From Eledone cirrhosa (Eukaryota): DNA of 64,000 nt. The stretch covers positions 26,660,001 through 26,724,000 of the forward strand of contig OZ024743.1 in assembly GCA_964016885.1 (NCBI GenBank). Direction: 5' to 3'. Under the pieces are notes generated by a model that saw only the letters and a list, made by a program, of their open reading frames with translations, was not told where the DNA came from and did no database searches. The first letter of the stretch is position 1; the number at the start of each line of letters is the position of its first letter. Below are positions 3,278-61,632 of the stretch, piece by piece. The translations under genes and the position numbers were made by a program.

Positions 3278-4450
3278 ATCATCATCATCACCATTTTATG
3301 TCCACTTCTCCATGCTTGCATGGGTTGGACAGGTTCTTTTCAGCAGAGCATTTTTCCAATCATCTCAGTCTTTGGTCATCTCCTCTGAGATTCAGTGATT
3401 TCGAAATCAGCTCTTACAACCTCTGCCCCGGTCTTCCTTGGTCTCCCTCTATCACAGCTCCTTTTAATTAGGATTACTTGGCACTTCTTCACCCAGCGCT
3501 CATCATCCATATGCATCACATGGGCCATACCTGCACAGTCTTCTCTTCTGAACATTACATCTAATTCCGCTTCTATCCAACCTCTCTTTCAGCTCATCTA
3601 GGCATTGCCTTTCACACATATTAACATTGCATATCCATCAAAGCATGCTTGCTTCATTTCTCTCCAGCCTTTATATATCTTCTGCATTCACTGCTCATGT
3701 CTCACTATTATGCAACATCACACAGTTGGCCTTCCATTCATAGAGAGAAACCTTTTGCTGTCAACAGAGGGAGCAGCTTTCTGAACTTTTTCCATCCTGT
3801 TCTTACTCTAGCTATTATGCTCTCGGTGCAGCCTCCTCCTCCACTAATTTTATTACCTAGGTAACAGAAGCTATCAACTACTTGTATGGAGCCTTCCTGG
3901 GATTGAAAAATGTTTATTTTACTTGTGCTCTTACTAAATATCCCTGTGTGTCTACGACATACAAATTTTACTCTTTTGTTAGTCTGTCTATTACACCACT
4001 ATACCTCTTGTGTATCTAAATTGAACAGGGCTACTTTCTTGATAGGATCAGGGTCTTATCTTCTTTCCTGCTTACCAGAATTTTAGTTTTTCCTAAGTTT
4101 AGTCTAAGCCTTTTTGACTATTTCTGTTTCCAAAGCTGGAATTTCTTCTTTCACAGATTTGGCTATTAGAATCAGGTCATTGGCATATAGGAGTTCTCAT
4201 AAGCAACATGTCTTAAACTCTTCTGTTATGGCCTGCAGAACTATGATAAACAGAAGTGGGCCGAGATCAGAGCCTTGAGGAACACCTACTTGCACATTGA
4301 ATTCCTTACTAAACTCATTGCCTACTCTCATCTTACTAACAGTTCCTCTATAGATGGCTCACAAGCTATTCTTCCATGCCTAATTTCCTAAAGGCCACCA
4401 GATGACAGATCAAGGTACGTTGTCAAAAATCTTCTCTAGATCAACAGAAG
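3278..4450 (-). mobile_element. Decayed RTE-clade LINE (RT to 3' tail)
   Basis: Degenerate RT and C-terminal coding remnants similar to 56322-57275 and 12895-13892; (CAT)n tail on + strand. Confidence 0.85.
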
Positions 4451-8451: not shown

Positions 8452-8970
8452 CATATATATATACATGTATGTATGTGTGTATATATATATATATATACAC
8501 ATATATACATGTATGCGTGTGTATATATATATATACAAACCCACACACAAATCCATTCATTTTTCTCATACTGGTCATAGCTTAAAAGTGCTACTTGCAA
8601 CACATGATTTATAATAGTTCAAACAATTAAATTTTATTCTTCATTGCACATAATTTGACACTGATATAAAATGCATGGTTGATTCACAACCTAACATTAT
8701 TTAGTTTAGATTAATAAAAAAATATTGGTTTATTTAAAGAGAAAATAAAGTAAAATATATATATTAGTCAGTAGAGAAATTCACACCAATCCTGACTTTA
8801 AGTTGAATGTATATAGGAAAGCAAAAAAAAAAAGACAAAAAAAAAGGAGTATATACAGTGTATTATTTGAATTAGTTTTTATGTAACATTGTTACTAATC
8901 CTTTGTGGAATGAAAGGCTTAATAATGAGGGTTTAGATTAAACTGAAGACCACTTTTTTTATATTAAGAT

Positions 8971-9276
8971 CTAGTGGGCAGTGGTTACTTCTTTAGCATT
9001 CTTACCTAGATTAGTCAATGCTACAGCTGGTGAAGGGCAAGGAGGAGAACAGTGAGGGCTGGAAGCGTTTGCTCTAGGGGTGCCTTTCGTTGAGGATTGT
9101 AAGATATTGTGTATAACTGAGCTATTATTGCTGTTACTAATGTTGCTACTACTATTGTTGTTGCTGAAGTCCTTGTTGAGACACTCTAATGAATGTACTT
9201 TTGTCAACTTCCCATTCTCTATTCCAGCAGCTACATAAGAGAATACACACAAAACTGCATAACATATCTGGTCAGC
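8971..9276 (-). CDS. MADD: MADD terminal coding exon K (ADQICYAVLCVFSYVAAG...EVTTAH*)
   Basis: tttcag acceptor; ICY.VLC.FSYVAA MADD C-terminal motif, then an Asn/Ser-rich tail and TAG. Confidence 0.92.
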   Translation of the reverse strand, partial: ADQICYAVLCVFSYVAAGIENGKLTKVHSLECLNKDFSNNNSSSNISNSNNSSVIHNILQSSTKGTPRANASSPHCSPPCPSPAVALTNLGKNAKEVTTAH

Positions 9277-11285
9277 CTGAAATGAAAAATAAAAAAAACA
9301 TCCTTTATCATTGAATATTTCATTAGATAATTAATTATTGAATGAATATACCATAATAAAGTATATTATTTCAATATTAGCTGGCACAACAGTAGCTACT
9401 AGTAGTGTAGAATGTTAGTTCCTAAGAAAATTTGTTTGTAATATCAACAAGACCTTTCTATAAGCTGTTACAGATTGAAATCTGCATATCAATTTTTTAA
9501 ACTAGGGAAATAACATTTTAAAATTATAACTAAATAATTTCATAGTTATTATTACTGTTCTCTAAGTTGCTAATCTATTAATATTTTTTGACATTATACC
9601 AATTTTCAATATACTTTTATTAAACTATTAATTTTCATTCTAGGAAATTGTTACACTGAATTAACATAAGAAATCTAAGTAGTCTGAAAATCTCTGAATA
9701 AGCTTATTCTAGCTGCTTAAACAAGACGTAAGATTTTCTTCGGAAAATACGTTTTCTTAGAATACTTTTACTATTTTGTGTATCATTTTATGAAGATTAA
9801 ATTTCAGGTCTCAAAAAATAAAGTTAGTTTGATATAACTAAGCAATTTGATATAACTAAGCATTTCAGTTGAAAAGGCTGGAAAAGCATGTTTTGGCAGT
9901 CTATACTGATATAATTGTTATATATTTACATCAGATACTAAAATAGAAGAATTAGAAGCAAAGGAACAAATAAACTGTTGAAACTCAACAATTGTGTAAT
10001 TAGCATGTAATAAATAAGTTGAAATATTTGTTGTGGGTAAATGTGACATGATGATCACACTATGAATTTAGAACCGGAAATAAAAACATTAGGTGTAATA
10101 ATTAAAATTCAGGTTTAGTATAAAGCAGAAATAATAAAGTTTAGGTTATGATTAACTGATCAATATCAATATCTGGAACAATGTCAGAAACAAAAAATAA
10201 CAAAAAGATAAAGATATAGAAAAGAAAATCCAGTAAAACCTAAAGAAAATAAGTTAGTTGTGAACGTTAGTTAATTGAATGCAGATATAGATGGAACTCC
10301 ATTTTGTGGAATTTTATGTCTGAAGAAATATTGATGTTTTAAGATCTTCCATTAAATATCTTTAATGATATAGGATGAGTGGATGGCAGAATCAATAGAA
10401 TATAGGACAAAATACATTTAGGTATTTAGTTGTGTCCCTTTATATTCTGAGTTCAAATCTTGCCCAGACCCACTTAGCCTTTCAACTTTTTGAGATTGAT
10501 CAAGTAAGTACCAGTAGAAAAACAAAATAATGTAAGTACAGGGGTTAATGTAATTGGCTACAGCCTAGAAGGTTGTTTTCCTGAATGGCCAATGACTGAA
10601 ACCATTAAAAGAAATTTAAAAATGTGATAATACTGAATATATGTTTACATCATTCAACTATATATACATATATAATATTGTTATACAAAGTATATACTTC
10701 TGAAGCAGGAATCTATGAACAGCTCATAACTTTTCCTATAATGTATGATGCTATATTTTACTCGTATTTTACATGCAAAATGGTTAGCCAGATAATATAT
10801 TGCACTGCTAAATTCTGCATTGTGAAATCAAATTGTTTTGTTTCTATACACAATACATTATTTTACACTGCCCTATATCATCTAGGAAAAAAAGGAAGAA
10901 AGAAGAGGGGAAGGTATGGAAGAAACTAGAATAAAGGTGTGGGGATGGTATGTTGATAAGAAAGCAGCATCAGTGATAGTCAGTTGGAGAAGCTTCTAAT
11001 AAATTGGAGATATTTATAAGATGTTGATAGTGATAGTGATTAAAATAAATAAAATAAAATGGACAATCTATTAAATATAAGGCTAAAGAAACTTCTGGTA
11101 GATTAATAATGTTTATGATGATAATAATGGAAGCAATAGATAGTGCTGTTGTTTAAGATGACGATGATGGTGATAAATAAGAGATGTTAATAAAAATAAA
11201 AAATAGAATTAATACGATAAAGTAAATAAATTATGTGAGTAGGTGAGTGTATATGAATTAATGGAAATTATTTAAAATAAGATTA

Positions 11286-12100: not shown

Positions 12101-12289
12101 CAGAGAAGTAGAAAAGAGAGGTTAACACAAACGATTTAGAAACAATTTTTTTGTTTTATTGTTGATGTCTTTGTGACCAGACCTGAGACTTTAAACTACC
12201 AAAATATTTTGCTCTCTTTTAAGAGAGATCAACCAGAGAGGGGTTCCTCCAACAGGAGTGAGAAGGCTCTGAATTGAACATATAGATAT

Positions 12290-12460
12290 ACACTGTATAT
12301 GTGGTTGGTGTTAGGAAGGGCATCCAGCTGTAAAAAAACCTGCCAGAGATGCTTCTGTGTGAGCGAGGCATCGTCTCCCGACCATTCCCGCATCAAATGG
12401 AACAAAACCATCTAACCCATGCTAGCGTGGAAGATGGTCGTTAAACAATGATGATGATGA
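12290..12460 (+). mobile_element. Short element sharing the RTE 3' tail (SINE tail or truncated RTE)
   Basis: gtggttggtgttaggaagggcatccagctgta...cgttaaacaatgatgatg; similar copies near 21853, 26215 and 57603. Confidence 0.75.
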
Positions 12461-12640
12461 TAAATTTATATGAATACATACACATAATTATATACATATG
12501 CATATATATATATATATATACAGATGAATATATACGTACATAAATATATATATATCTAAATCAGGATGGATTCAGTTTGAAACTGGTTATACCATTACTC
12601 AACAGAGTACTTGATACTTGGGGTAGTAGAGTATGGTTAT

Positions 12641-12748
12641 ATTATATACAGTCGTGACCGAACAGCTGAGATCATGCCATTTCAACAGCTAGTTCCAGTC
12701 TGGAACTAGCTGTTGAAATGGCAAGAGCTCAGCCATCGGGTATATAAT
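12641..12748. repeat. Palindrome with perfect 24-bp arms (12675-12698 / 12700-12723) and imperfect extensions
   Basis: tgccatttcaacagctagttccag-t-ctggaactagctgttgaaatggca. Confidence 0.95.
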
Positions 12749-12894
12749 GTATATATATATATATATATATGTATGTATATACATAAATATATATATTATT
12801 AGCGTGGAAAATAGACATTAAACAATGATGATGATGATATATATATATATTTATGTATATACATAAATACATATATATATATATATAAATACTA

Positions 12895-13892
12895 GCTCTT
12901 TCAATTGCGCAGAGGGTTCTATAGAAATAGTGGACAGCTTCCGTTACCTGGGCGATAAAATCAGCAGTGGGGGAGGGTGCTCTGAAAGTACTGTAGCTAG
13001 AGTCAGAACTGGTTGGAAAAAGTTCAGAGAGCTTATACCACTATTAGCTGCTAAAGGGTTCTCACTAAAAATGAAAGGCAGGTTGTACGATGCCTGCATA
13101 CGAACAGCAATGCTGCATGGCAGTGAGACCTGGGCATTGTGTGCAGAGGATATACGCAGACTAGAGAGGAACGAAGCTTGCATGCTCCGCTGGATGTGTA
13201 ACAGTAATATACGTGAACGGCAAAGCATAAACGAACTAAGGAAAAAATTAGAGATAAGAGGGATCAGATGTTGTTTACTCGAGAGAAGGCTACGTTGGTA
13301 CGGACACGTGATGCGCATGAAAGTCGACAGCTGTATAACAAAGTGCAGGGCAATAAAGATAGACGGTAGTCACGGAATAGGCAGACCTAGAAAAACCTGG
13401 GACGAGCTGATAAACTCCGACATCACACACTTACACCTCTCCAAGACAATGTCACTGGACCGAGACCTTTGGCGGTACTCAGTAACAGAGAAGACCCGCC
13501 TTACCTAAATATATAGTAAAACCTACTCCAGCCAGTAGGCATCTCTAACAAAATACACCCCGTCCCACCACCACCACCCCACCCCGTTCTATGTAAAGTT
13601 ATGTTGGTGCCGCGCCATCGAGGCCGAAACAAATGAGATCGTGTAGGTGTCACGACAAAAAAACACACAGTCCACGCTGTAATGTGGCCGTGTAGGCAAC
13701 ACGGTAAAAACCTCCCAGACCCACACTGTAAATGTGGTTGGTGTTAGGAAGGGCATCCAACTGTAGAAAACCTGCCAGACAGTCCTATGCGAGCAAGACA
13801 ATCACTCTTGCCTCAAGTGGGACTACCCCCGTCCAAACCCATGCAAGCGTGGAACACGGACGTTAAACGTTGATGATGATGATGATGATGAT
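12895..13892 (+). mobile_element. 5'-truncated young RTE LINE (ORF C-terminus, 3' UTR, (GAT)n tail)
   Basis: Open ORF 12930-13508 with FRYLG, MLHGSETW, RRLRWYGHVMR and GRPRKTW motifs. Confidence 0.93.
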
Positions 13893-14847
13893 ACTCATAA
13901 ATACCCACATATTTGTATAATTCTAATTAAATTAACTATTCAGTGGGAGATTTACTTATAATTCCCAGACCAGGGTTAAACACTGGTCTGTAAGAGATAC
14001 TAGAAGCATTATATATCAAGTTAGGAAGCATTATTTAAATCTTTCATAATTTATAAATGAAGCAAGAAAGGGAAGAAGAAAATACTGGACACTGATCCAA
14101 ATTAAACAGTTAGAGTAATTAAAAGAACAGTGGAAATTGAAAATTATTAAACTGTCCCTCTCACTTTTTTGACATAATTGTTATCCCTTCACTCATTATC
14201 AGTTGAATGCAGCTAGGTTTTTCAGAAATAATATTCACAGTTAAATTACTAGTAAAGTAAAAAGTAAGGCAACAATAAGGTATATATTATTCTTTTTGGA
14301 GTCTATTAACTTTGTATCTTGATGATTTACCAACCAATAATTAAATATATGACCTTGAGCTATTGTTATACTTTAAGCCCAAGTCAGTACTGATTGAGCA
14401 GATTTATAAACAAAAGTATTTCAGTCATTATCATTCTGTTTTGTTTAAAATTTGTTTAAAATTGTTTAAATTAGTTAAAATTGGTCAACCTTCTTTTAAT
14501 GTCCATTTATTGATGGTGCCATTGGGTGGCTAGGTGTTTAATACATATCTTTGTATATCTTGATCATGTGTGAATTAATTTATGAGATTCTTACTTCTCA
14601 TGCCTTCATCACTTTAATTCTACCATCAGCATATTAAACACTTCTTCTGTGCCCACTTATTTCTGAGAAGGTCGTGGGGGCAGAGTCCTCAAACACAACA
14701 TGCTAAATAGTTTTGTGTCCAATATTTTTATGTTTTTCATAAACAATTATTTTGTTTCTTCAATCATTTATTCTAGTTGATGTAAAAAAATAACTGTTCA
14801 GTAAATTAAATAACATCTGAATCTATATCATTGTATAAATGAGTGTT

Positions 14848-14923: not shown

Positions 14924-15008
14924 AGAGGGGGATAAACAGAGATAGAGATCAGTTTAATAAGTTTTCAGTATCCAAATATAAAAAAAAGTTACTGCACAGA
15001 AGCCAGTG

Positions 15009-15119
15009 TCAAGTTAAGTATGGCCTACTCTTTATACGATAGGTGAGTCTCTTTGAGCTTACGCTCAATGCCATATGTCTCGAAAAGACACGGTGAACCA
15101 TTAAAACCATCTGATTGGC
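15009..15119 (-). CDS. MADD: Alternative terminal coding exon K' (ANQMVLMVHRVFSRHMALSVSSKRLTYRIKSRPYLT*)
   Basis: ctttctttatctctag acceptor, phase 0 after exon J; aligns without gaps to exon K (A.Q....V..VFS...A). Confidence 0.75.
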   Translation of the reverse strand, partial: ANQMVLMVHRVFSRHMALSVSSKRLTYRIKSRPYLT

Positions 15120-15277
15120 CTAGAGATAAAGAAAGATTATGTTTCACATCAATTTTATACACCAAGATAATCTGAAATGATTCTATAATTCATCATACTA
15201 TACCTGATATGTGTGCGTGTTTGTAAATTTATCTATGTACATACATGTGTGTGTGTGTGTATATATAATTAGTATAA

Positions 15278-15399
15278 ATTATTATATTAGGAAAAGCAAG
15301 AAGTGAAGTGAAATTTGAAGAGAGATTAATTTGATTAATTAAATAAATCTCTCTTCAAATTTCACCTCATTCCTTGCCTGTTTTTCCTAATATAATAAT
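15278..15399. repeat. Inverted repeat forming a long hairpin of about 55 bp
   Basis: gtgaaatttgaagagagatt / aatctctcttcaaatttcac plus attattatattaggaaaa / ttttcctaatataataat. Confidence 0.9.
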
Positions 15400-15970: not shown

Positions 15971-16017
15971 CATGCTGGATTTAAACTTATGAGGAATCAC
16001 TTGCCTAGTTTTGGGAT
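15971..16017 (-). CDS. MADD: MADD exon J (DPKTRQVIPHKFKSSM)
   Basis: tttacag acceptor, gtaagt donor; 47 nt, phase 1 to 0. Confidence 0.93.
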
Positions 16018-17314: not shown

Positions 17315-17530
17315 TTAACCCTTTAGCATTTACATTACTCTATATTTACTATTGTATTTTCATGGTAAAGGCTTTACCTCACATAATATCGAATCTATGA
17401 GATTTTGATATTAATTATTTTGAGAGCAATACCTTAACATCAATATGAGTGGCTGGTTACAGCCAGTTTGAACAGAAAGAGGTGAGGGAATTCTGGCTGG
17501 ATACAGCTGGTTTAAATGCTATAGGGTTAA
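17315..17530 (+). mobile_element. piggyBac-type MITE family 1
   Basis: TTAA-CCCTTTAGCATTTA...TAAATGCTATAGGG-TTAA; copies at 29879 and 40174. Confidence 0.88.
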
Positions 17531-18037
17531 ACCCAGCCTGTCCCTCAGCTCGTCCAAGCTCTGCCTTAGTCTCACATTTATATTGCATATCCAATGAAAT
17601 ATAGTTGCTTCATTTCTCTCCAGTCTACACATGTCCTCTGCAGTCACAGCCCATGTTTCACTACTATAAAGCATTGTGCATTGCACACAGGCATCATACA
17701 GCCTTCCTTTTGTACATAGGGAGAAACCTTTTGTTGTCAACAGTGAGAGTAGTTCTCTAAACTTCTTCCATCCTATCCTTATTCTAGCTACTGTACTCTT
17801 GGTGCACCCTCCTCCGCTGCCAATTAGGCCACCTAGATAGCAGGAGCTATCAATCATATCTATGGATCTTTCCTGTGACTGGAAAAGGTTTATATCATTA
17901 GCACTCTTCCTCTCGATTTCTCCTGAATATCCTCTACAAGCAAAGTTCTCCCTTCCTGTTAGTCTACTTGTTGTCTCACATCTTTTATGTAACCAAGATT
18001 TACATTGTGTGCATTGTATGGAGTTTATGCCTACTCC
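17531..18037 (-). mobile_element. RTE LINE fragment (Cys-rich finger to SETW region)
   Basis: ORF 17519-18046 with CTQCKSWLHKRC, GWKKFRELL and MLYSSETW. Confidence 0.88.
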
Positions 18038-19119
18038 TTCATGCAAGCATGGAAAAATGGTGATGATGATGTATATATGCCAGCATAGGTGGATATATCA
18101 ACAGTTAGATAAATTGGGAAATTTGTTTTTGATAGATTAATGGTTTGCTTAAGAGAAACCCTATATTTTATGTTGCATACTGACAGGTGGAAGTGATTAA
18201 ATTTAAGAACAATATTTTAATTATTTATTTTTAGGATATAATTATATAAATGTTCAGTAAATATGAACAAGGAACATACAGGATAATATGTATAACTTTG
18301 GAGAAATAACTATTTACAGGTACAAATAGAGGATTAGAACCCAGGAACTTGTAATTGGAAAGTGAATTTCTTATATCAACAATGACTGAGATTGGACATG
18401 CATTATATGTGTGTGTGCTTGTGTGTATAAATTTTAACGGGTAACATATATAATATATAAGTATATATACACAGTATATTATTATGGTTGATTTTTGCTT
18501 TGAAATTTTAGTTTTGAAATCTGAAATATGTAATTTGATATTGGCTTATTTCTAAATGATGGTTGTGTGTACATGTATGTGTGTGTGTACACACACACAC
18601 ACACACACACACACATCTATGTACATTCTTCTCTCTTTCTCTTCCCACACTGTCTCTGAAATAATAAAAATGTATATTGCTGCAAAATCTAGAAAAATCT
18701 TCAATAGTAAAAGCTTTAGAATAAAAATAACATTATAAACTTAACATTATATTGAATTAAGTTATGAAATCAGATATTAAGTTTTTAAAATGTTTGTTAG
18801 ATTAGTTTTGTATGAAACAGCAATTTTGATTATTTAAATTGGAATTATTTTTCTGATCTTTTTTATGAAGTAAATGATGACTGAAATGTCTCAATATTAT
18901 ATTGCTTTTACACACAAACACACATATAAATGAATATATATATATTATCACCAGACACCAGAAACACACACACACACATATATATATAAATATATTATAC
19001 ATATACTTATATATATACCTCCAGTTATTATTAGTACTCATTTTCAGCTGAGTATACTGGAGCAACATGAAATGAAGTGTTTTGTTGAAGATCACAACAC
19101 ACAACCCGGTCCAGAAAAG

Positions 19120-22172: not shown

Positions 22173-23889
22173 ATATATATATATTATATATTTTACACAT
22201 ATTTTATTCTCATAGTAATCTTCATATTTTATTCCCATATATTGATTTTGATTGTAAAGAGTAGTCTGGTTTCTATTTCCAATAGTTTGTTAGGATCAGA
22301 AATTCCTTGAGAATATCCAGATTCTTTAGTTAATAATAGATCGCCTTGATATCATACAAATGTTTTAGTGAACATATGGTTCTTAAGCTAGTAGGGATTA
22401 AGCTTTGTAGTTGAATGTAGAGATATGCCACACAAAATTTGATCAAACCTTACTTTTTCTTCAGTCATTTATCTGAATTTTGTATACTATATGGCAGTTT
22501 GTATCTCATATTATTTCTGATACACTCCTGTGAGTCTAGATTATAAATTGCTTTATCTATTACAAAGCTAGTGGTTAAAAGATGCAAACTGATCTTTCAT
22601 CCTTTGCTAAATAGATTTAGTAAATTCTTTAATAATAATATGAATAAATTATTTTGGGTAAAAAAAAGGTTCCTAATCCTGATATCAAACTGTAAGATTT
22701 CTTTCTATGTTAACATTATCCACTTTTTAACTATTCTATAAACAATAATTGTATAATTCAGTTGTATAGTTGTACAATGACAACAAGCTCAAGTTGAACT
22801 GATTCTGACTTTCATGGTGGTCACAAATATCTTATATTGCAAATATTTAATAGGAGTTTACACATTCTGATAGCTTCTGCAGTCTTGGTAGATACTGAAG
22901 AGACTTTTGTTCTTAATAGATTACTGAAAGCAAAGAAAATTATTCAATGGAATGCATCTTGAATAACTGAAAAGTAAAACACCTCTTTAAAACATTTATG
23001 AAAGAATATAAAATATCAACAATACAATTTATGATGTATAAAATGCATCTGTAAACTGGATTTCTCTTTTAAATTAATTTCTAAATGCTAATTCTTAAAA
23101 GCCAAAATTATTATTTTTTATATTTGTTTATTGCAATTATAAAGAGTCTTTATTACAATTTCTAATATAGAAATAAGGCTACAAATTTAGAAAGGATTTA
23201 GTTCGTTTAACCAACTTCATTATTTGACTGTTACTTTATTTTGTTGACCTTGAAAAAAAACAAAACATCAAGTTACACTCAGTGGGATTTAAACTCAGAA
23301 CACAAAGAGCTGGAACAAACATTTTGAGGTATTTATCAAATGCTCTAATGTGACTGTCAAGCAATCACCACTATAATTAGACTTAATAAGAATAACAAAG
23401 GTTCTAGGATTTGTTAATTAGAAAGTAATAAAAAGTAGTTTATCTGAAAGCAATACAAGTATTATAATTAACTATTTTTCAGTAATAAGTATATTATTTA
23501 AGATAAGCTGATTAGATTTTAAAGAATTGGTTTCAAACTCAGCTAAGGAGTTAAATTACTGTCATTTTAGTAGACAAGAATTCAATTAAATATAAAATAT
23601 TGAAATCTAAAAATAATAGGTATTTGCTTATAACAAAAATCAAAACAAAACATATACTAATTGTAGTTTTACCAATCAAGCACAAAATGTACCAGATTTG
23701 ATATGTTTTAGCACCACTTAATGCATCAATTTTAGATTTGGTGTGGCCATACTATTTCAGCTCTTTAGCATATTTAGTACATTTTGGCACATTTTTGTGC
23801 TGTCTCCTAATTAGATATAAATCATAGTTTGTTTGTAAATAATAATAATAATAATGTTTCTACTTTTAGCACAAGGCCAGCAATTTCCC

Positions 23890-25165
23890 CAGTGCATTAT
23901 TAGGTACAGTGCAGGAATTCTGAAATGGAATGTTACTGAACAAAAAGAAATGGATAGGAAGACTAGGAAGGTAATGACTACCTACAGCATGTTCCACAAG
24001 AAGAGAAATGTTGATAGACTCTACTTAAAGAGATCTGAAGTTGGAAGAGGTCTTATCAGCATAGAGTACGGTGTTCAGATGGAGAAAAACAGTCTGCACA
24101 AATATGTGTCTGACAGCAGAGAGCCAATGCTCAAAATTGTACTGAAGGAGAAGACAATAGACCAAGGGATGTCTAAGGAGGAAATAACAAGGAGGAAGAG
24201 CAACCTTCATGAAAAACCCCCCATAGCACCTTCTTTAAGAAAACGGAATTCAGAAATCCACAGACATGGAACTGGTTAAAAAGAGGAGACCTTAAAAAAG
24301 CTACAGAAGGAATGCCAATGGCTGCACAAGAGCAAGCCTTCAGAACGAAGTGGGTGAAACACCATATTGACATGGAGGAGGCTAGCTCACTGTGTAGGAA
24401 CTGTGGAGAGAGAGAGAAGAGACTGGCTCACATCCTATCTGAGTGTAAACACCTAGCCCAGACTCACTATAAAGGCTGGAGATATGATATGATAGGAAAG
24501 GTGATTCACTGGCATTTATGCAAACTAAACAATTTACCACATTCTGAGAAGTGGTATGAGCATAAGCCAGAGCCAGTGATAGAAAACGATCTAGTGAAGG
24601 TGCTATGGGATTTTAGGATACAGACAGACAAGAAATTAGAACACAATAGGCCTGACCTGGTGGTTTTTAACAAGGAAAAAAGATTGTGCCTGATTGTAGA
24701 TGTAGCCTGCCCCTTTGACACAAGAGTGCAAGAGAAGGAGAACATTAACCGATACCAGGATCTAAAGTGGGAGTTAAAAAGGATTTGGGACTGTCATGAG
24801 ATCAAGGTCATCCCGATTGTCATAGGAGCACTAGGTACTATTTCAAAGAGTTTTCAAGGATGGTTAAAGAAGATTAGTCCAGCCCTGTTTTTTGGAACAC
24901 TTCAAAAGGCATGCTTGCTGTGAACAGCAAGAACCCTCCGATACGTCCTGAATGTCTGAGGCTGCAGGTAGCGGCTTGATATTCATTTGAACCAACTTTC
25001 CAGTTAAATAACTGTTTCTACTTTAGGCACAAGGCCAGCAATTACCCAGTGCATTACTGGTACTTTATTTTATCGACCCCGTAAGGATGAAAGGCAAAGT
25101 TAACTTTCCAGTTAAATAACATCAATAAATGAGACTCAAAGAATAATAGTAATAATAATAATAAT
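23890..25165 (+). mobile_element. 5'-truncated RLE-type non-LTR retrotransposon (R4/Dong-like)
   Basis: CCHC knuckle CRNC...HILSEC, RYD (RHD-like), PDLVV...IVDVACP PD-(D/E)xK nuclease, IVIGALG; frameshifted; flanked by (TAA)n. Confidence 0.88.
25013..25101 (-). mobile_element. SINE 3' fragment with 19-bp TSD
   Basis: aactttccagttaaataac at 24994-25012 and 25102-25120. Confidence 0.88.
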
Positions 25166-32979: not shown

Positions 32980-33052
32980 CAAACTCCTCTAGTACAAATA
33001 TGCCTCCTTTCTGTGTGAAACATTTCTTGACACGACATAGCTCAATAAAGAA
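32980..33052 (-). CDS. MADD: MADD exon I (FFIELCRVKKCFTQKGGIFVLEEF)
   Basis: tttcag acceptor, gtaaga donor; 73 nt, phase 0 to 1; resembles the MADD FIEL..IKKC....G.FVLEEF motif. Confidence 0.95.
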
Positions 33053-33689: not shown

Positions 33690-33698
33690 CTCAAAATC
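33690..33698 (-). CDS. MADD: 9-nt microexon GATTTTGAG (DFE)
   Basis: Long AG-free pyrimidine tract with TGC motifs, ggcag|GATTTTGAG|gtaatg; frame preserving between NSK and FFIEL. Confidence 0.8.
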
Positions 33699-44533: not shown

Positions 44534-44640
44534 CTTGCTATTAGCTAGAAGAAATCCAATACCATCCATGCACACTTGGAGTAGTCCTCCTTGTCCAGAC
44601 CTGAGATCTTGAACTGGGAATTCCCCACCTATGTCAGGTC
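44534..44640 (-). CDS. MADD: MADD exon H (GPDIGGEFPVQDLRSGQGGLLQVCMDGIGFLLANSK)
   Basis: GGEFPVQD...GGLLQV signature; tttcag acceptor, gtaaca donor; phase 1 to 0. Confidence 0.96.
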
Positions 44641-45239
44641 CTGAAATATATGGAAATATGAACTGTAGGAATCCAAAAGCAGAAAATAACTCTAGCAACA
44701 CTCAATTGCTATATATAATTGGGCAAGAGACAGAAAAAGGTAGCTAAGTATCAGATAATCAAACTTCCTATCTTTCAAAAATTTAAAATATTGTTTTTTA
44801 TTATATTGCAACTATACAAAAAGGATTTGTTACCAAATCCTTTTTGTTATTAAACCACCTGGAATTGTCGCTGGATCTACAATATAAATCTGTTCATTTT
44901 AGTGTTTATTCTTATCTAAAAAAAAGACCTTCCATCAGAATTTTATCTGAACACCATCTTAATGAGAAAGTTAGCTATATTACTAAATACATTCAAAATC
45001 TCAATTATTTTCAAAATTAATTGAAAATCATAGGTTGTGTATTTCGTTTAAAATATGGTAATCAAAGGGCTCATTCTAGTAAATGCAGTTCTCATTATGA
45101 TGTATAAAACTCTTTGTTTCAATTGCATGTTCTTCCCTAACAGTGTGATTATAGTGAGAATGTGATAGAAGTGTGTGTGTGTGAGAGGGGAGGGGGGGGG
45201 GCTGAAAAGAGAAGAAATGGTAGAGAGTAATAGAAGAGA

Positions 45240-56321: not shown

Positions 56322-57275
56322 AAGGCATCAGGGGACGTAGGCACTAAACTGGTTGCACGCATCATCAATCAGGCTATATATGGTGGTGTCATACTCAAAG
56401 ACTGGTGCAGCAGTATTCTCATAAATTGCTACAAAGGTAAAGGGGATGCTCTGGAGAGGAGCAATTATAGGGGTATAAAACTGATAGATCAGGTTATGAA
56501 AGTGGCAGAAAGGATTTTAGCATAACTAATTAGAGAAAGGGTCAAACTAGATGAGATGAAGTTTGGTTTTGTGCCTGGGAAGAGTACAACAGATGCCCTC
56601 TTCTTGGTGAGACAATTGCAAGAGAGGTTCTTAGAGAAGGCCTTTGATAGGGTACCCCGATCTGTCATCTGGTGGTCCCTAAGGAAGTTAGGTGTTGAAG
56701 AATGGCTTGTGAGGACAGTGCAAACTTTGTACAGAGGTACTCTCAGTAAAGTCAGGGTAGGAATGGAGTTTAGTGAGGAATTCCAGATACAAGTAGGAGT
56801 ACATCAGGGTTCGGTCCTCAGCCCGCTCTTGTTCATTATAGTCCTCCAAGCCATAACAGAGGAGTTTAAGACTGGCTGTCCATGGGAACTTCTCTATGCT
56901 GACGATCTGGTTCTTATAGCAGAATCAGTAGAGGAGCTAGAAAATAAATTCTGGCTATGGAAACAGCAGTTGGAAGCAAGAGGACTGAGAGTGAACCTAG
57001 CTAAGACAAAAGTGTTGATGAGTAGAAAAGAGGACAAAACCATGATTCCGTCAGGGAAATGGCCATGTTCGATATGCAGAAAAGGAACTGGCATAAATTC
57101 TATAAAATGCACACAATGCAGATCCTGGGTACACAAGAGATGTAGCGGGATAGCAGGCAAACTAACAGGCAGGGAGAAATATGTATGCAGTAGATGTACA
57201 GGGAAATTAGACAGTAGAAGTCGCATTGATAGACACATTTTTCAAATGCAGGAGGGCGCTATAGAAGTGGTGGAT
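56322..57275 (+). mobile_element. RTE LINE reverse-transcriptase fragment with PHD-like Cys/His finger
   Basis: NYRGIKL, LEKAFDRV, GVHQGSVLSPLLF, LLYADD, then CSIC...CTQC..WVHKRC...CSRC; bounded by (AT)n on both sides. Confidence 0.93.
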
Positions 57276-57280
57276 ATATA

Positions 57281-57328
<48 letters not shown>

Positions 57329-57517
57329 TCTCCATTCTGAACTTGTTTATAGAATTCTTTCTGCCTTTGTTAATCTAAATATAAATTAAAGCTTTAAAGA
57401 ATTAGCTTTTAATGAATTCCCTTTTCTATCAACCAATAACCTCTACCCATCCCACCCCTACCCTCTCCTACCACTTGAAGAGGCCTATAAATACCATATT
57501 TATTTTTTTATACCCAT

Positions 57518-58099: not shown

Positions 58100-61000
58100 T
58101 CTCTAGATCACACGAGCTCTCTCCCTCTCTAAATCGCACCTTGAATTTCTCACCGGACTTATCTATCTCCTCTCTAACCTTTCCCCCCACTCTTCCCGCT
58201 ATCTCTCTCGCTCCTCTCTTCTGTCTCTCTCCCCTTTCTTTTCTTCTGTTTCTTTTTCTTTTTATCTCTCTTTTCCTCTAAATCGCTCCTTAAATTTCTC
58301 ACTGGACTTATATCTCCCTCTGTCCCTCTGTAACCTCTATCCTACACTTCCCACTATCTCTCTTTCTCCCCTCCACAGCGAAATGGACTGCATACAGGAA
58401 AAAGGTGATATTAGGAGTCAGCGAAACTAGTCAAAGATGGAACTAGCGGTTTTGATCAAGGGGTGGACCATGGCTGATGGGTCTCCACCAAGCAAAAAGA
58501 TGGCGGAGAGCCTGAAAAGCCATGGGTTTCTGAGGACCCTGGCACAGATAGAGAGAAAGAGAAAAGAAATTGAGAAGGCGTATGTCCTCATAGCGCCACA
58601 TATGGCGATGTTAAGCTGTGTCCTCAAGGAGGAGAAAACCGAAGAGAAGGAAGAGGAGAGGGACAAAGAAAAGGAGGAGAGCACAAGCACGGACCTGAAA
58701 GAAAATGAGATACCCTCCGCCACAGTCAGGGAGGGCAGGCCGGGCAACCAACAAGCAAAAGGTAAAGGTGAAAAGCGAAATCACCTTCCGAAGGAGAACC
58801 AAGCACAGACGGACCAGTGGACAACTGTTCAAAGGAAGAACAGAAAGCACCAAGACACTGGGAGCCAAAAAACCCAAGTAATGTGCAAGTTTTTCAAGAA
58901 CGGGATCTGCTGGCATGGAGAGACAGGGATGGGATGCAGATTCGCCCACCCCAGGTCTCAAACGAACTATGCCCATCTTACTCGCGCAACATGCCCCAGC
59001 CAAAGCCGAAATAAGCCGCTCCAACAAGAAGAAGGCACGCACATGCCGACGAGATACAGATGGCTGCAGCAGAGCAGAAAAATTTTTTAGTGATGGCAGA
59101 GAAGATTGTGGGACAGCTGACCTGGCTGCATCATTTCCAGAGCCAGGGTCACCCACACCAGTACTTGAGACCACCACAGCTAAGGGACCCAGAGTGGCCG
59201 CCGCTGACACCAGACCAGGTGTCATACCAACAGCCATTACTGGCACCCCAAAAGTCACACCAGTGCTGCTGCTGAATGTCAGAGGCCTGGTGAAACTCAG
59301 TAACATGAGTAAAATTTCCTACCTGAGAGACTTAGCCATAAGCAATCAAGCATTATGCATGGCACTAACCGAAATGCACCTGACAAGCAGTATAGCAGAT
59401 GCAGAAATATATATACCGAAATATACTGTATTTCGTTTGGACAGGAAGGAGAGAACTCATGGTGGGGTTGCTCTGTATATCCGCGAAGATGTCACACCAA
59501 TTGTACTGTTGACACATTCAAACTCAGTCTCTGACACACTGATAGTACATATGAAGCAACTACAGACAGTAATATGTCACATATCGGCCGCTCGATGCCC
59601 CCAGTCATGAGCGTAAATTTGAGGATAGCCTAAGTAGGATAGAAGAGGTCCTTGACAAACTGGACCAGGGTCTCAACATTCTACTGCTGGGAGACTTCAA
59701 CCTACCAAAGGTCAAATGGCCTGAGAGCCACCTCCTCCCTGGAATGACGTCAATAGAACAGAGACAGACGGAATTCCTGCTAGCCCTCACACACAGGCTG
59801 TTCATGGAGCAAGCCATACTCCTCCCAACAAGAGGCAAAAATGTCCTGGACCTCTGTTTTACAAACAACGAAGTGCTCATCCACAATGTAAAGGTGACAC
59901 CAACAATTCTCTCGGATCATAACTTAGTAGAGCTAATGATATGTGGTCCAAGAGAACCAACAGAGACAAAACCACCAAGAAGCTCCGGGACGTTATCCAG
60001 CCTTAACTTTTACAAGGCTAACTGGAAAAAGATTAAGAGAGAAATCCGGAAGCAAACATGCAGTGAAAACACCGCCACACAAGACACTAACACACAATTT
60101 CAACACTTCATGACAACGATACACACTATATGCAAAAAGTTTGTCCCGGAGAAAAAGGCAAACAGACACAAAAATCTTATTCCCAGAGATAGGAAAATTC
60201 TTATGAGACGTAGAACCAAGCTCTCAAACCAGTTGAATGCTCAACAAGAAAACAAAAACAAGAAGGAATCCTATTTGAAATGTGCACTACTTGGCACCGA
60301 GATTGCACTCAAACTTTCCCATGAAAATGAGAGGGCAAAGAAAGAGAACAGGACCATAGAAAACATTAAAACAAACCCTAAAGCCTTCTTTAAATTTGCA
60401 AAAGAAACTGCCTCGGTACACTGCAAGATTGGGCCACTCTTCCATATGGACGGTTCATTAACCGAAAACCCCCAAGAGATATGTGAAATACTGAACGAAC
60501 AGTACAAAAGTGTGTTCACATGTCCACTGAGGCACATGCAAATAACGAAGCCAGAGGAGTTCTTTGATGCCACAACACTACATGAAGAAATGGCAACCAT
60601 CAGCCACATAGACATAATGGAGGAGGATGTGGTGTACGCCATAGATGAAATTAGAACAGACTCAGCTGCTGGACCTGATGGATTCCCAGCAGTTCTCTTA
60701 AAAACATGTAAGCGGGCCTTAGCAACTCCACTGAAGATGCTCTTCAGAAACTCCTTGGCTAGCAGTGTACTACCCAGTTTTACAACAAGATCTGGATGCC
60801 ATATACAAATGGGCGGAAGAAAACAACATGCAGTCTAATGCTGGCAAATTCCAAGCCCTACAATACAAACCTGCAAACACAAATATAGTACAACACAACT
60901 ACACAGGACCAGGAGGGACCGATATCCCCGTGTCAAAATCGATATGAGACCTGGCATATACATGAGCGATGATGCAACTTTTTCCTCACACATCATGAAA

Positions 61001-61632
61001 GTGGCGACAATGTGCAGACGACTCGCTGGCTGAATCTTGAGGACTTTCCGGACAAGAGACCGAGACACCATGTTGACACTATGGAGGACATTTGTCCTAA
61101 GCCGCCAGGACTACTGCTCCCAGTTGTGGTCACCCCATAGTGTCAAACTAACCACGGAGCTTGAGGCAATCCAGCAAAGCTACACTAAGAGGATTGCCAC
61201 GATGAAGGAGACAAGCTACTGGGAGAGGCTAAAGGAACTGAATCTCTACTCCTTGGAACGAAGATGAGAGATACGCAGTGATCTACATGTGGAAAATCCT
61301 GGAGGGACTAGCACCAAACTTTGGCATTGGGAGCTGGACCAACCGTCAAACAGGACGTCACTGTGTGGTGCCAAAGGTCCCGTCTTCCACATCTAGAATA
61401 AAGAGCAGGTATTGCAATAGCCTGGGATTCAAGGGCCTTCAACTCTTCAACAAGCTGCCGAGGGATCTGAGAGATTTACATGACGTGGAAGTGGATGTCT
61501 TCAAGAAACATCTCAACACCTTTCTATCCAGGATCCCGGATGAGCCCACAGCAAGGCACGAGGGAAACCTAAGGGCAGCAGCAACAAACTCCCTCTTACA
61601 CCAGTGGCCAACCTATACAGGCTGGAGATAAA
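58100..61632 (+). mobile_element. Internally deleted CR1-clade LINE: pyrimidine-rich 5' region, ORF1 with CCCH finger, ORF2 APE endonuclease and C-terminus
   Basis: CKFFKNGICWHGETGMGCRFAH; LLNVRGL, GGVALYI, LLGDFNLP, TRGKNVLDL, SDHNLV; AAGPDG; LQQDLD..YKW; LYSLERR; PDEPT...NSLLHQ; frameshifts and stops. Confidence 0.9.

What the first reader, a model, noticed from the sequence alone, without database searches (positions are those of the whole stretch)
15009..15119. Hidden paralogous alternative last exon of MADD
Seen: 850 nt downstream of exon J a strong acceptor opens ANQMVLMVHRVFSRHMA..., which aligns without gaps to the canonical last exon ADQICYAVLCVFSYVAA and ends at TGA after 36 aa. It is too short for the ORF track. 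It also has an internal in-phase donor (AGC|gtaagc, exon end 15063) that would make a 57-nt cassette. Inference: an exon duplication gives two alternative C-terminal helices, a basic short tail versus a long Asn/Ser-rich tail, with different 3' UTRs.
Basis: partly seen in the sequence, partly recalled or inferred. Interest (0 to 1): 0.72.

Follow-up and report, generated by a model that had tools for sequence, protein, structure and literature searches.

The report
Ancient swappable helix exon in MADD
An octopus-type gene for the vesicle-traffic regulator MADD (Rab3-GEF) carries a second short end exon, matched by annotated isoforms in many molluscs and arthropods, that is predicted to swap the helix closing the protein's last domain and is likely spliced in ahead of the usual last exon rather than replacing it.

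Summary
The exon (K', minus strand, acceptor 15119) is real. RefSeq isoforms of Octopus bimaculoides and O. sinensis end in it (25 and 24 of 31 residues identical), and 20 named mollusc and arthropod species have both a K' and a canonical K isoform. Either exon is predicted to supply the closing helix of MADD's last PH-like domain. K' is best read as a 91-nt cassette (donor after 15029): its leftover A joins the GCTGA that opens K to give Ser-stop, a 31-residue tail and a shared 3' UTR. The 57-nt donor is not conserved, and the basic versus Asn/Ser tails are lineage-specific. The conserved difference is His-Arg versus Tyr-Leu-Cys on one helix face. No junction read from this species was displayed. 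The exon is already in automatic annotation; ten literature searches found no description of it. It is an ancient, likely duplicated C-terminal exon pair, a known kind of event (compare KRAS 4A/4B). The scan had not noted it before.

The parts
15029..15119 (-). Exon K': likely 91-nt cassette, phase 0 to phase 1; 30 codons plus one leftover A; codes the alternative closing helix
   Evidence: sequence; in-silico splice into K gives 31 residues ending RIKS-stop, the length and ending of XP_052822152.1
15009..15028 (-).
15057..15062 (-). Internal phase-0 donor-like site gtaagc (57-nt form); not conserved in three other cephalopods
15120..15170 (-). K' acceptor: pyrimidine tract and AG, 50 nt free of other AG
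15971..16017 (-). Exon J, 47 nt; read in two frames (last PH strands if exon I is included; six residues and a stop if it is skipped)
8971..9276 (-). Coding part of last exon K (101 residues and stop); opens GCTGA, which supplies the stop for a phase-1 splice from K'; 3' UTR follows
   Evidence: a contig of run X4 begins at 9276 and covers 8640-9276
32980..33052 (-). Exon I, 73 nt, frame-shifting; its inclusion is needed for either K or K' to be translated
33690..33698 (-). 9-nt microexon coding DFE
   Evidence: optional DFE in relatives' isoforms
44534..44647 (-). Exon H (approximate 5' end), first part of the last PH-like domain
   Evidence: tblastn, donor, Pfam 1-37 of 92

Best explanation
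K' is an alternative exon of a MADD/Rab3-GEF gene, conserved across molluscs and arthropods, that is likely spliced as a 91-nt cassette between exon J and last exon K, so that it is predicted to replace the closing helix of the last PH-like domain while both messages would share K's 3' UTR. Shown: the exon, its position and phase, its conservation, and annotated isoforms with J joined to K' in relatives. Inferred: J-K'-K splicing ends the frame at Ser-TGA five bases into K. Predicted: the core face of the helix (positions 1, 4, 8, 11, 12) is kept and the other face changes from Tyr6/Leu9/Cys10 to His9/Arg10, which would change what binds or packs there (a peptide groove, if the domain works like PTB-type PH folds). 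Together with frame-shifting exon I this would give three ends: truncated PH, PH closed by K, PH closed by K'. Including K' while skipping I would put the stop 117 nt before the last junction and likely trigger decay, tying K' to the full-PH form. Origin by tandem duplication in a protostome ancestor is likely, not proven.
For: O. bimaculoides X4 and O. sinensis X6 end at residue 31 in IKS-stop, as the in-silico J-K'91-K splice does. 28 of 59 distinct K' tails end in S, R, G or C, the residues of N+GC, against 0.21 in tail bodies and 15 of 74 K tails; 11 of 18 mollusc genera. Longer variants in Patella, Haliotis cracherodii, Sepia and this window continue right after that Ser, as read-through of A|GT would. 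Locus L014 has a 52-nt intron, a 76-nt K' ending A|gttaat, a second 52-nt intron and K opening GCTGA. Order J, K', K in 8 of 8 loci that hold both (7 distinct). A contig of run X4 starts exactly at 9276; J, I, H and the unspliced intron all end in G and would share base 9277, K' donors do not (inference from how assembly graphs branch). Pfam PH_MADD 1-92 with K, 1-90 with K', 1-37 without I. AlphaFold2 of a Littorina pair identical for 561 residues: helix 559-577 (K') and 561-584 (K) after the same strands. K and K' profiles match best in register 0 (8.9; shuffle p 0.0003).
Against: No J-K' or K'-K junction of this species was displayed: the joint table showed 15 repeat-derived rows and withheld 230; X4 is not on record as RNA, and its contig start cannot tell the 57-, 82- and 91-nt donors apart. 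The 91-nt donor is weak (4 of 9 consensus matches; the 57-nt and 127-nt sites have 5). RefSeq exon coordinates were not seen, so the Octopus stop could be genomic, as in L014 where read-through also gives Ser-stop. The tail counts are not independent, and three genera with two variants were counted by their Ser variant. 15 of 59 tails end in Ala, unexplained. In L004, L011, L030 and L034 K does not open GCTGA and K' has its own stop; L004 runs unspliced from K' into K. In L020 and L039 the phase-1 donor is the only GTRnG-type site but is not top by a plain consensus count. The helix of the upstream PH domain scores 6.0 against K, near the 8.9 of K'. No binding partner was tested.
Confidence: 0.65

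Rival explanations
1. K' is mainly a terminal exon (or K' and K are two acceptors of one long terminal region): the donor is read through, giving 36 residues, with its own or an extended 3' UTR.
For: ATTAAA at 14958 and AATAAA at 14772; weak donor; read-through isoforms annotated in Patella vulgata, Haliotis cracherodii and Sepia; L004, an intronless 1507-residue frame, joins J to K' and runs unspliced to K; insect-like loci give K' its own stop; homologous C-terminal swaps in humans are described as alternative poly(A) events (PMC8373072).
Against: 31-residue Ser-stop ending in both named Octopus isoforms and the N+GC ending pattern; only 52 nt between K' donor and K in L014; X4 contig start at 9276. 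AT-rich DNA holds many poly(A) hexamers (15 between 15120 and 7000).
Confidence: 0.25
2. The 57-nt donor is used and K' is inserted in frame before K, giving two helices in a row.
For: AGC|gtaagc scores 5 of 9 and keeps the frame; it would also explain the X4 contig start; one beetle gene model (P0248) has 13 K' residues in frame before K.
Against: The GT codon is Ser in O. bimaculoides, O. sinensis and Sepia; 1 of 120 K' records has K in frame behind it, a hypothetical-protein model; one domain needs one closing helix (inference).
Confidence: 0.06
3. K' is a real alternative exon but not a duplicate of K: an independently recruited amphipathic helix that fits the same slot.
For: DNA identity 24 of 57; negative column scores at positions 9, 10, 14-16; an unrelated PH closing helix scores 6.0 against K.
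Against: Same phase-0 acceptor after J, shared Ala-Asx-Glx-Ile start and Val/Ile-Phe-Ser core in one register; K' scores at most 2.3 against five control helices. This rival concerns origin only and is compatible with the cassette model.
Confidence: 0.2
4. The exon is a silent relic or chance ORF in this species.
For: No junction displayed here; K' evolves faster than K (mean pairwise identity 0.41 versus 0.80); several lineages show K only.
Against: Intact acceptor and frame, 25 of 31 residues identical to an annotated Octopus isoform with all helix-core residues kept; three DNA-like runs of one sample cover 14934-15229 with no other letters.
Confidence: 0.03

Closest known systems
RefSeq predicted isoforms XP_052822152.1 (Octopus bimaculoides MADD X4) and XP_036357042.1 (O. 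sinensis X6), and like isoforms in other molluscs and arthropods
   Same: J joined to the orthologous K' exon; 25 and 24 of 31 residues identical
   Different: Automatic annotation only; no paper found that describes the pair, its age or its splice logic
Tandem exon duplication-derived C-terminal substitutions (Martinez Gomez et al. 2021, PMC8373072); KRAS exons 4A/4B (PMC9882654)
   Same: Two adjacent homologous exons give alternative C-termini without breaking the folded domain; ancient (passages). That KRAS 4A is spliced on to 4B is recalled, not read here.
   Different: The catalogue ascribes homologous C-terminal swaps to alternative poly(A); here the upstream copy likely borrows its stop from the first bases of the downstream copy. 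MADD is not in the human table of 236 events.
Human MADD dual-coding penultimate exon (PMC13160074; bioRxiv 10.64898/2026.05.28.727796)
   Same: Skipping one exon shifts the next into a second frame, stops after a few residues and trims the C-terminal PH domain; brain-specific frame use in human and mouse (passages). Exons I and J do the same in silico and in 29 records.
   Different: It is the upstream switch, not K/K'. The papers trace it to jawed vertebrates; the same arrangement is seen here in molluscs, ants and a spider. No human sequence was fetched, so exon homology is inferred from the description.

Membership tests
MADD / Rab3-GEF / AEX-3 | Death_MADD (PF23629) followed by C-terminal PH-like domains (PF25328) | tested here: met
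   window exons match O. sinensis MADD residues 1057-1673 at 85-100% over coding parts; Pfam on that protein
MADD / Rab3-GEF / AEX-3 | N-terminal uDENN-DENN module | not testable with these tools
   lies upstream of the window; no genome held; present in the closest relatives
Tandem exon duplication-derived substitution | Two exons adjacent in one gene, same acceptor phase, replacing the same protein region | tested here: met
Tandem exon duplication-derived substitution | Detectable homology of the two coded regions | tested here: inconclusive
   register-0 profile score 8.9, shuffle p 0.0003, but a control PH helix reaches 6.0 against K; DNA 24 of 57
Tandem exon duplication-derived substitution | Both isoforms are expressed | tested here: inconclusive
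   both annotated in 20 named species; intronless J-K' contig L004; no junction displayed for this species
Alternative last exon (alternative poly(A)) | Exon is terminal, with its own poly(A) site and 3' UTR, not spliced onward | tested here: inconclusive
   poly(A) hexamers exist, but tail endings, L014 and the X4 contig start favour onward splicing to K; 3' ends not observable in contigs
PH-like fold | Seven-strand sandwich closed by a C-terminal helix | tested here: met
   predicted strands 491-558 then helix in both models; Foldseek top hits are tandem PH modules; Pfam
PTB-type peptide-binding PH fold (last domain) | Peptide groove between strand 5 and the closing helix | tested here: inconclusive
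   PTB and FERM-F3 matches (Z 13-15, rmsd 1.3-2.4 over about 90 residues) cover the upstream domain 384-484; the last domain was barely tested
MADD dual-coding exon as described for human | Skipped frame-shifting exon, short second frame and stop in the penultimate exon, PH trimmed | tested here: met
   73-nt exon I; six residues then stop; Pfam 1-37 of 92; homology to the human exon not tested by sequence

The most novel reading that the evidence does not exclude
The 3' end of MADD is a three-state splice switch at least as old as protostomes, with one state shared with humans: a frame-shifting exon decides whether the last PH domain is built at all, and a duplicated helix exon, which takes its stop codon from the first five bases of its own paralogue and is policed by nonsense-mediated decay, decides which binding face it shows, so that neurons or other secretory cells choose MADD's partners by splicing.
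Probability: 0.3. Interest if true: 0.62.

Novelty: new member of a known kind. Interest (0 to 1): 0.44.

Why it matters
MADD/Rab3-GEF activates Rab3 and Rab27 and links synaptic vesicles to KIF1A (PMC12495445, PMC8298099; passages), and a fly stop codon downstream of the death domain is nearly as severe as the null (PMC4791486; passages), yet the role of its C-terminal PH module is little studied. A natural pair of isoforms that differ in one helix face, kept in both molluscs and arthropods, is a ready-made probe of that module, and any cloning of invertebrate MADD picks one of three ends. The side result that the human dual-frame exon has a likely counterpart in protostomes would push that event back from jawed vertebrates to the bilaterian ancestor. 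It is not a new kind of system.

Tried and rejected
No genome held. The 36-residue peptide alone found no relative among 1.84 billion representatives (1 hit, a repeat in an unrelated protein) and no relevant Pfam family: too short. No solved MADD structure by sequence; only DENND1A/B DENN domains. Sequencing runs: no RNA holder listed; 4 runs of one study laid; repeats filled the joint and loose-end tables. X4 shows cover in the bins of K, K' and J and none in 15140-15389, 14390-14639 and 13890-14139; lack of cover is not evidence, and depth was not used to rank isoforms. Deuterostomes: 0 of 37 listed echinoderm and hemichordate records carry K' (36 K, 1 truncated); the K' profile search found no deuterostome protein of either type, so it is blind there; no vertebrate, nematode, cnidarian or Drosophila protein was retrieved, so 'protostome only' is not shown. 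K only among listed members of Bacillus rossius, Amphibalanus, Oedothorax and Bradysia coprophila. Of 79 metagenome loci, 22 gave a motif hit: 8 K' and K, 11 K only, 1 ending after J, 2 weak single hits. A first alignment with a wrong member (A4) was dropped. K opening GCTGA: 3 of 7 distinct loci with K', 0 of 8 without, L001 set aside: too few. 'Basic tail' and 'Asn/Ser tail' rejected as the conserved function. The NQHIKRF end of P0130 has no clear match in the window. No complex was predicted, as no partner is named by the evidence. Earlier scan findings: none by sequence or place, none holding the word MADD.

Full report
Observation. The gene lies on the minus strand. Exon J (16017-15971) is followed after 851 nt by an acceptor at 15120 that opens a 36-codon frame ending in TGA at 15009; a phase-0 donor-like site follows 15063; the canonical last exon K opens at 9276. 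K' is the best ungapped match to K among 308 AG-opened peptides of the J-K intron and second to K itself among 3317 in the window, but by a thin margin (18 against 16).

Identity of the gene. An upstream exon found 374 relatives among 429 candidates, 120 listed; the best named are MADD of Octopus sinensis (97%) and Argonauta (94%). tblastn of the O. sinensis protein maps residues 1057-1673 to eleven exons between 55101 and 8974. The species is an octopod by closest relatives; no genome is held.

K' is a conserved exon. RefSeq O. bimaculoides X4 and O. sinensis X6 join J to K' (25 and 24 of 31 residues identical; Sepia 17 of 36). Of 493 protein records held, 130 could not be anchored by the script; of the other 363, 187 end J-K, 120 J-K', 8 J-other, 29 in the exon-I-skip frame and 19 otherwise. 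The classes were defined by Tyr6/Cys10 and His9/Arg10, so the invariance of those columns is partly by construction, but 307 of the 315 records that pass through J fall into the two classes. Both isoforms are listed for 20 named species: 12 molluscs (two Octopus, two Haliotis, Littorina, two Magallana, Pomacea, Liolophura, two Patella, Mercenaria), six insects (Nilaparvata, Photinus, Cryptotermes, Danaus, Thrips, Bemisia), Folsomia and the scorpion Centruroides; at most 15 members a cluster were listed. K' also occurs in an annelid and a nemertean. In metagenome contigs, 8 of 79 loci (7 distinct) hold both exons, always in the order J, K', K. L004 is an intronless 1507-residue frame that ends J-K'. 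No K' was seen in 37 echinoderm and hemichordate records, and MADD is absent from the human table of tandem-exon substitutions (PMC8373072 supplement searched, with TPM1 as a positive control); both are weak negatives.

Splice architecture. K opens GCTGA. A phase-1 donor in K' leaves one base, which with GC makes Ser, Arg, Gly or Cys, followed by TGA. The window has such a donor after 15029; splicing it in silico gives 31 residues ending RIKS-stop, the length and ending of the O. bimaculoides isoform. 28 of 59 distinct K' tails end in one of these four residues (background 0.21; K tails 15 of 74), and 11 of 18 mollusc genera do (table assigned by hand, three genera with two variants counted by the Ser variant; relatives are not independent). 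Longer variants in Patella, H. cracherodii and Sepia continue directly after that Ser, as read-through of A|GT would. L014 has K' of 76 nt between two 52-nt introns, with K opening GCTGA. A Mya model has K' followed by K in another frame. In run X4, of unrecorded kind, a contig of depth 36.8 begins exactly at 9276 and covers K and its UTR, while intron pieces have depth 2-3; since J, I, H and the intron end in G, a branch at 9276 rather than 9277 points to an upstream partner such as a K' donor (inference). Against: no K' junction was displayed, the donor is weak, four loci give K' its own stop, L004 runs unspliced into K, L020 and L039 give only weak support, and 15 tails ending in Ala are unexplained. 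The junction-made stop therefore looks typical of molluscs and some other animals, not of insects. The 57-nt donor is not conserved.

Protein consequence. Pfam PH_MADD is matched over 1-92 with K, 1-90 with K' and 1-37 when exon I is skipped. AlphaFold2 models of two Littorina isoforms identical for 561 of 585 residues place K' (559-577, pLDDT about 73) and K (561-584, about 67-75) as the helix after the last seven-strand sandwich; overall confidence is low (mean pLDDT 63.5 and 59.1) because the first 225 residues are disordered. Foldseek returns tandem PH modules; the second look matches the upstream domain to PTB and FERM-F3 folds and barely tests the last one. Hydrophobic positions 4, 8, 11, 12 are shared; 9 and 10 switch from Leu-Cys to His-Arg. 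At 100 degrees a residue, 4, 8, 11, 12 lie on one face and 6, 9, 10, 13 on the other (arithmetic). I infer a kept core and a changed outer face; in PTB-type folds the closing helix lines the peptide groove (established knowledge), so a change of partner is the likeliest function; it is untested. K is far more conserved than K' (0.80 against 0.41). Tail charge and length are not conserved.

Coupling. Skipping the 73-nt exon I reads J in another frame to a stop 26 nt before the J-K junction, inside the 50-55-nt zone that escapes nonsense-mediated decay (established rule); adding K' moves it to 117 nt, so K' would matter only in I-included messages. The human equivalent is described as brain-specific in frame use and as preserved across jawed vertebrates (PMC13160074 and 10.64898/2026.05.28.727796; passages); tissue specificity was not tested here.

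Origin. K and K' profiles match best in register 0 (8.9; other registers at most -1.3; shuffle p 0.0003), K' scores at most 2.3 against five control helices, but the upstream PH helix scores 6.0 against K. Duplication is likely. Presence in both Spiralia and Arthropoda dates the exon to their common ancestor unless it arose twice.

Literature. Ten searches gave no description of this exon pair; the library lacks most subscription papers. Seen as passages only: PMC13160074, 10.64898/2026.05.28.727796, PMC12495445, PMC8298099, PMC8373072 (supplement), PMC5740500 (only an author name), 10.64898/2026.09.05.749416, PMC12603207 (human isoforms from exons 13, 16, 21, 26, 34), PMC6025963, PMC4791486, PMC9882654; PMC9741552 supplement searched only (no MADD). 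Figures and supplements of the bioRxiv preprints were not seen and may list invertebrate MADD exons, K' included.

Verdict. Interest 0.44.

Noticed in passing
window 33698-33690 (-): 9-nt microexon coding DFE with a purine-containing, weak acceptor; optional in molluscs, insects and a spider. Likely the 9-nt MADD microexon reported as one of two bilaterian-ancestral neural exons (10.64898/2026.09.05.749416, passage); the figure was not seen, so the identity is inferred.
   Followed up: partly
window 33052-32980 and 16017-15971 (-): Skipping exon I reads J in a second frame (IPKLGK-stop); 29 records from cephalopods, gastropods, bivalves, a chiton, ants and a spider end this way, matching the arrangement published for human MADD and there traced only to jawed vertebrates.
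   Followed up: partly
window 9006 (-): Strong donor-like site TAG|gtaaga near the end of K's coding part; the X4 contig reads through it.
   Followed up: no
window 9276-8971 (-): The 101-residue Asn/Ser-rich K tail is shared with Octopus and Argonauta only; other molluscs have about 25-30 residues.
   Followed up: partly
L003, L006-L008, L010, L017, L033: J and K are contiguous although I and J are separated by an intron: these animals lack the J-K intron and so cannot carry K' there. L035 and L049 have the intron without a K' hit.
   Followed up: partly
L004 4596-5107: Intronless full-length MADD frame ending in K', continuing unspliced for about 200 nt to the K acceptor: K' and K behave as two acceptors of one terminal stretch in this unnamed animal.
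   Followed up: partly
window 12290-13890, also 3376-4358, 17519-18097, 23839-24923, 56526-57389, 58431-61631: Long frames that resemble retrotransposon reverse-transcriptase and endonuclease pieces (resemblance recalled, no search run); 12140-13889 has depth 10^5-10^6 in the DNA-like runs. A short element ending in (GAT)n recurs at about 12300, 13720, 48200 and 62650.
   Followed up: no
P0130, P0158, P0216, P0471: Further annotated short ends after exon H or I in single lineages (Octopus, Haliotis, Liolophura, venerid clams); the Octopus one has no clear counterpart in the window.
   Followed up: partly
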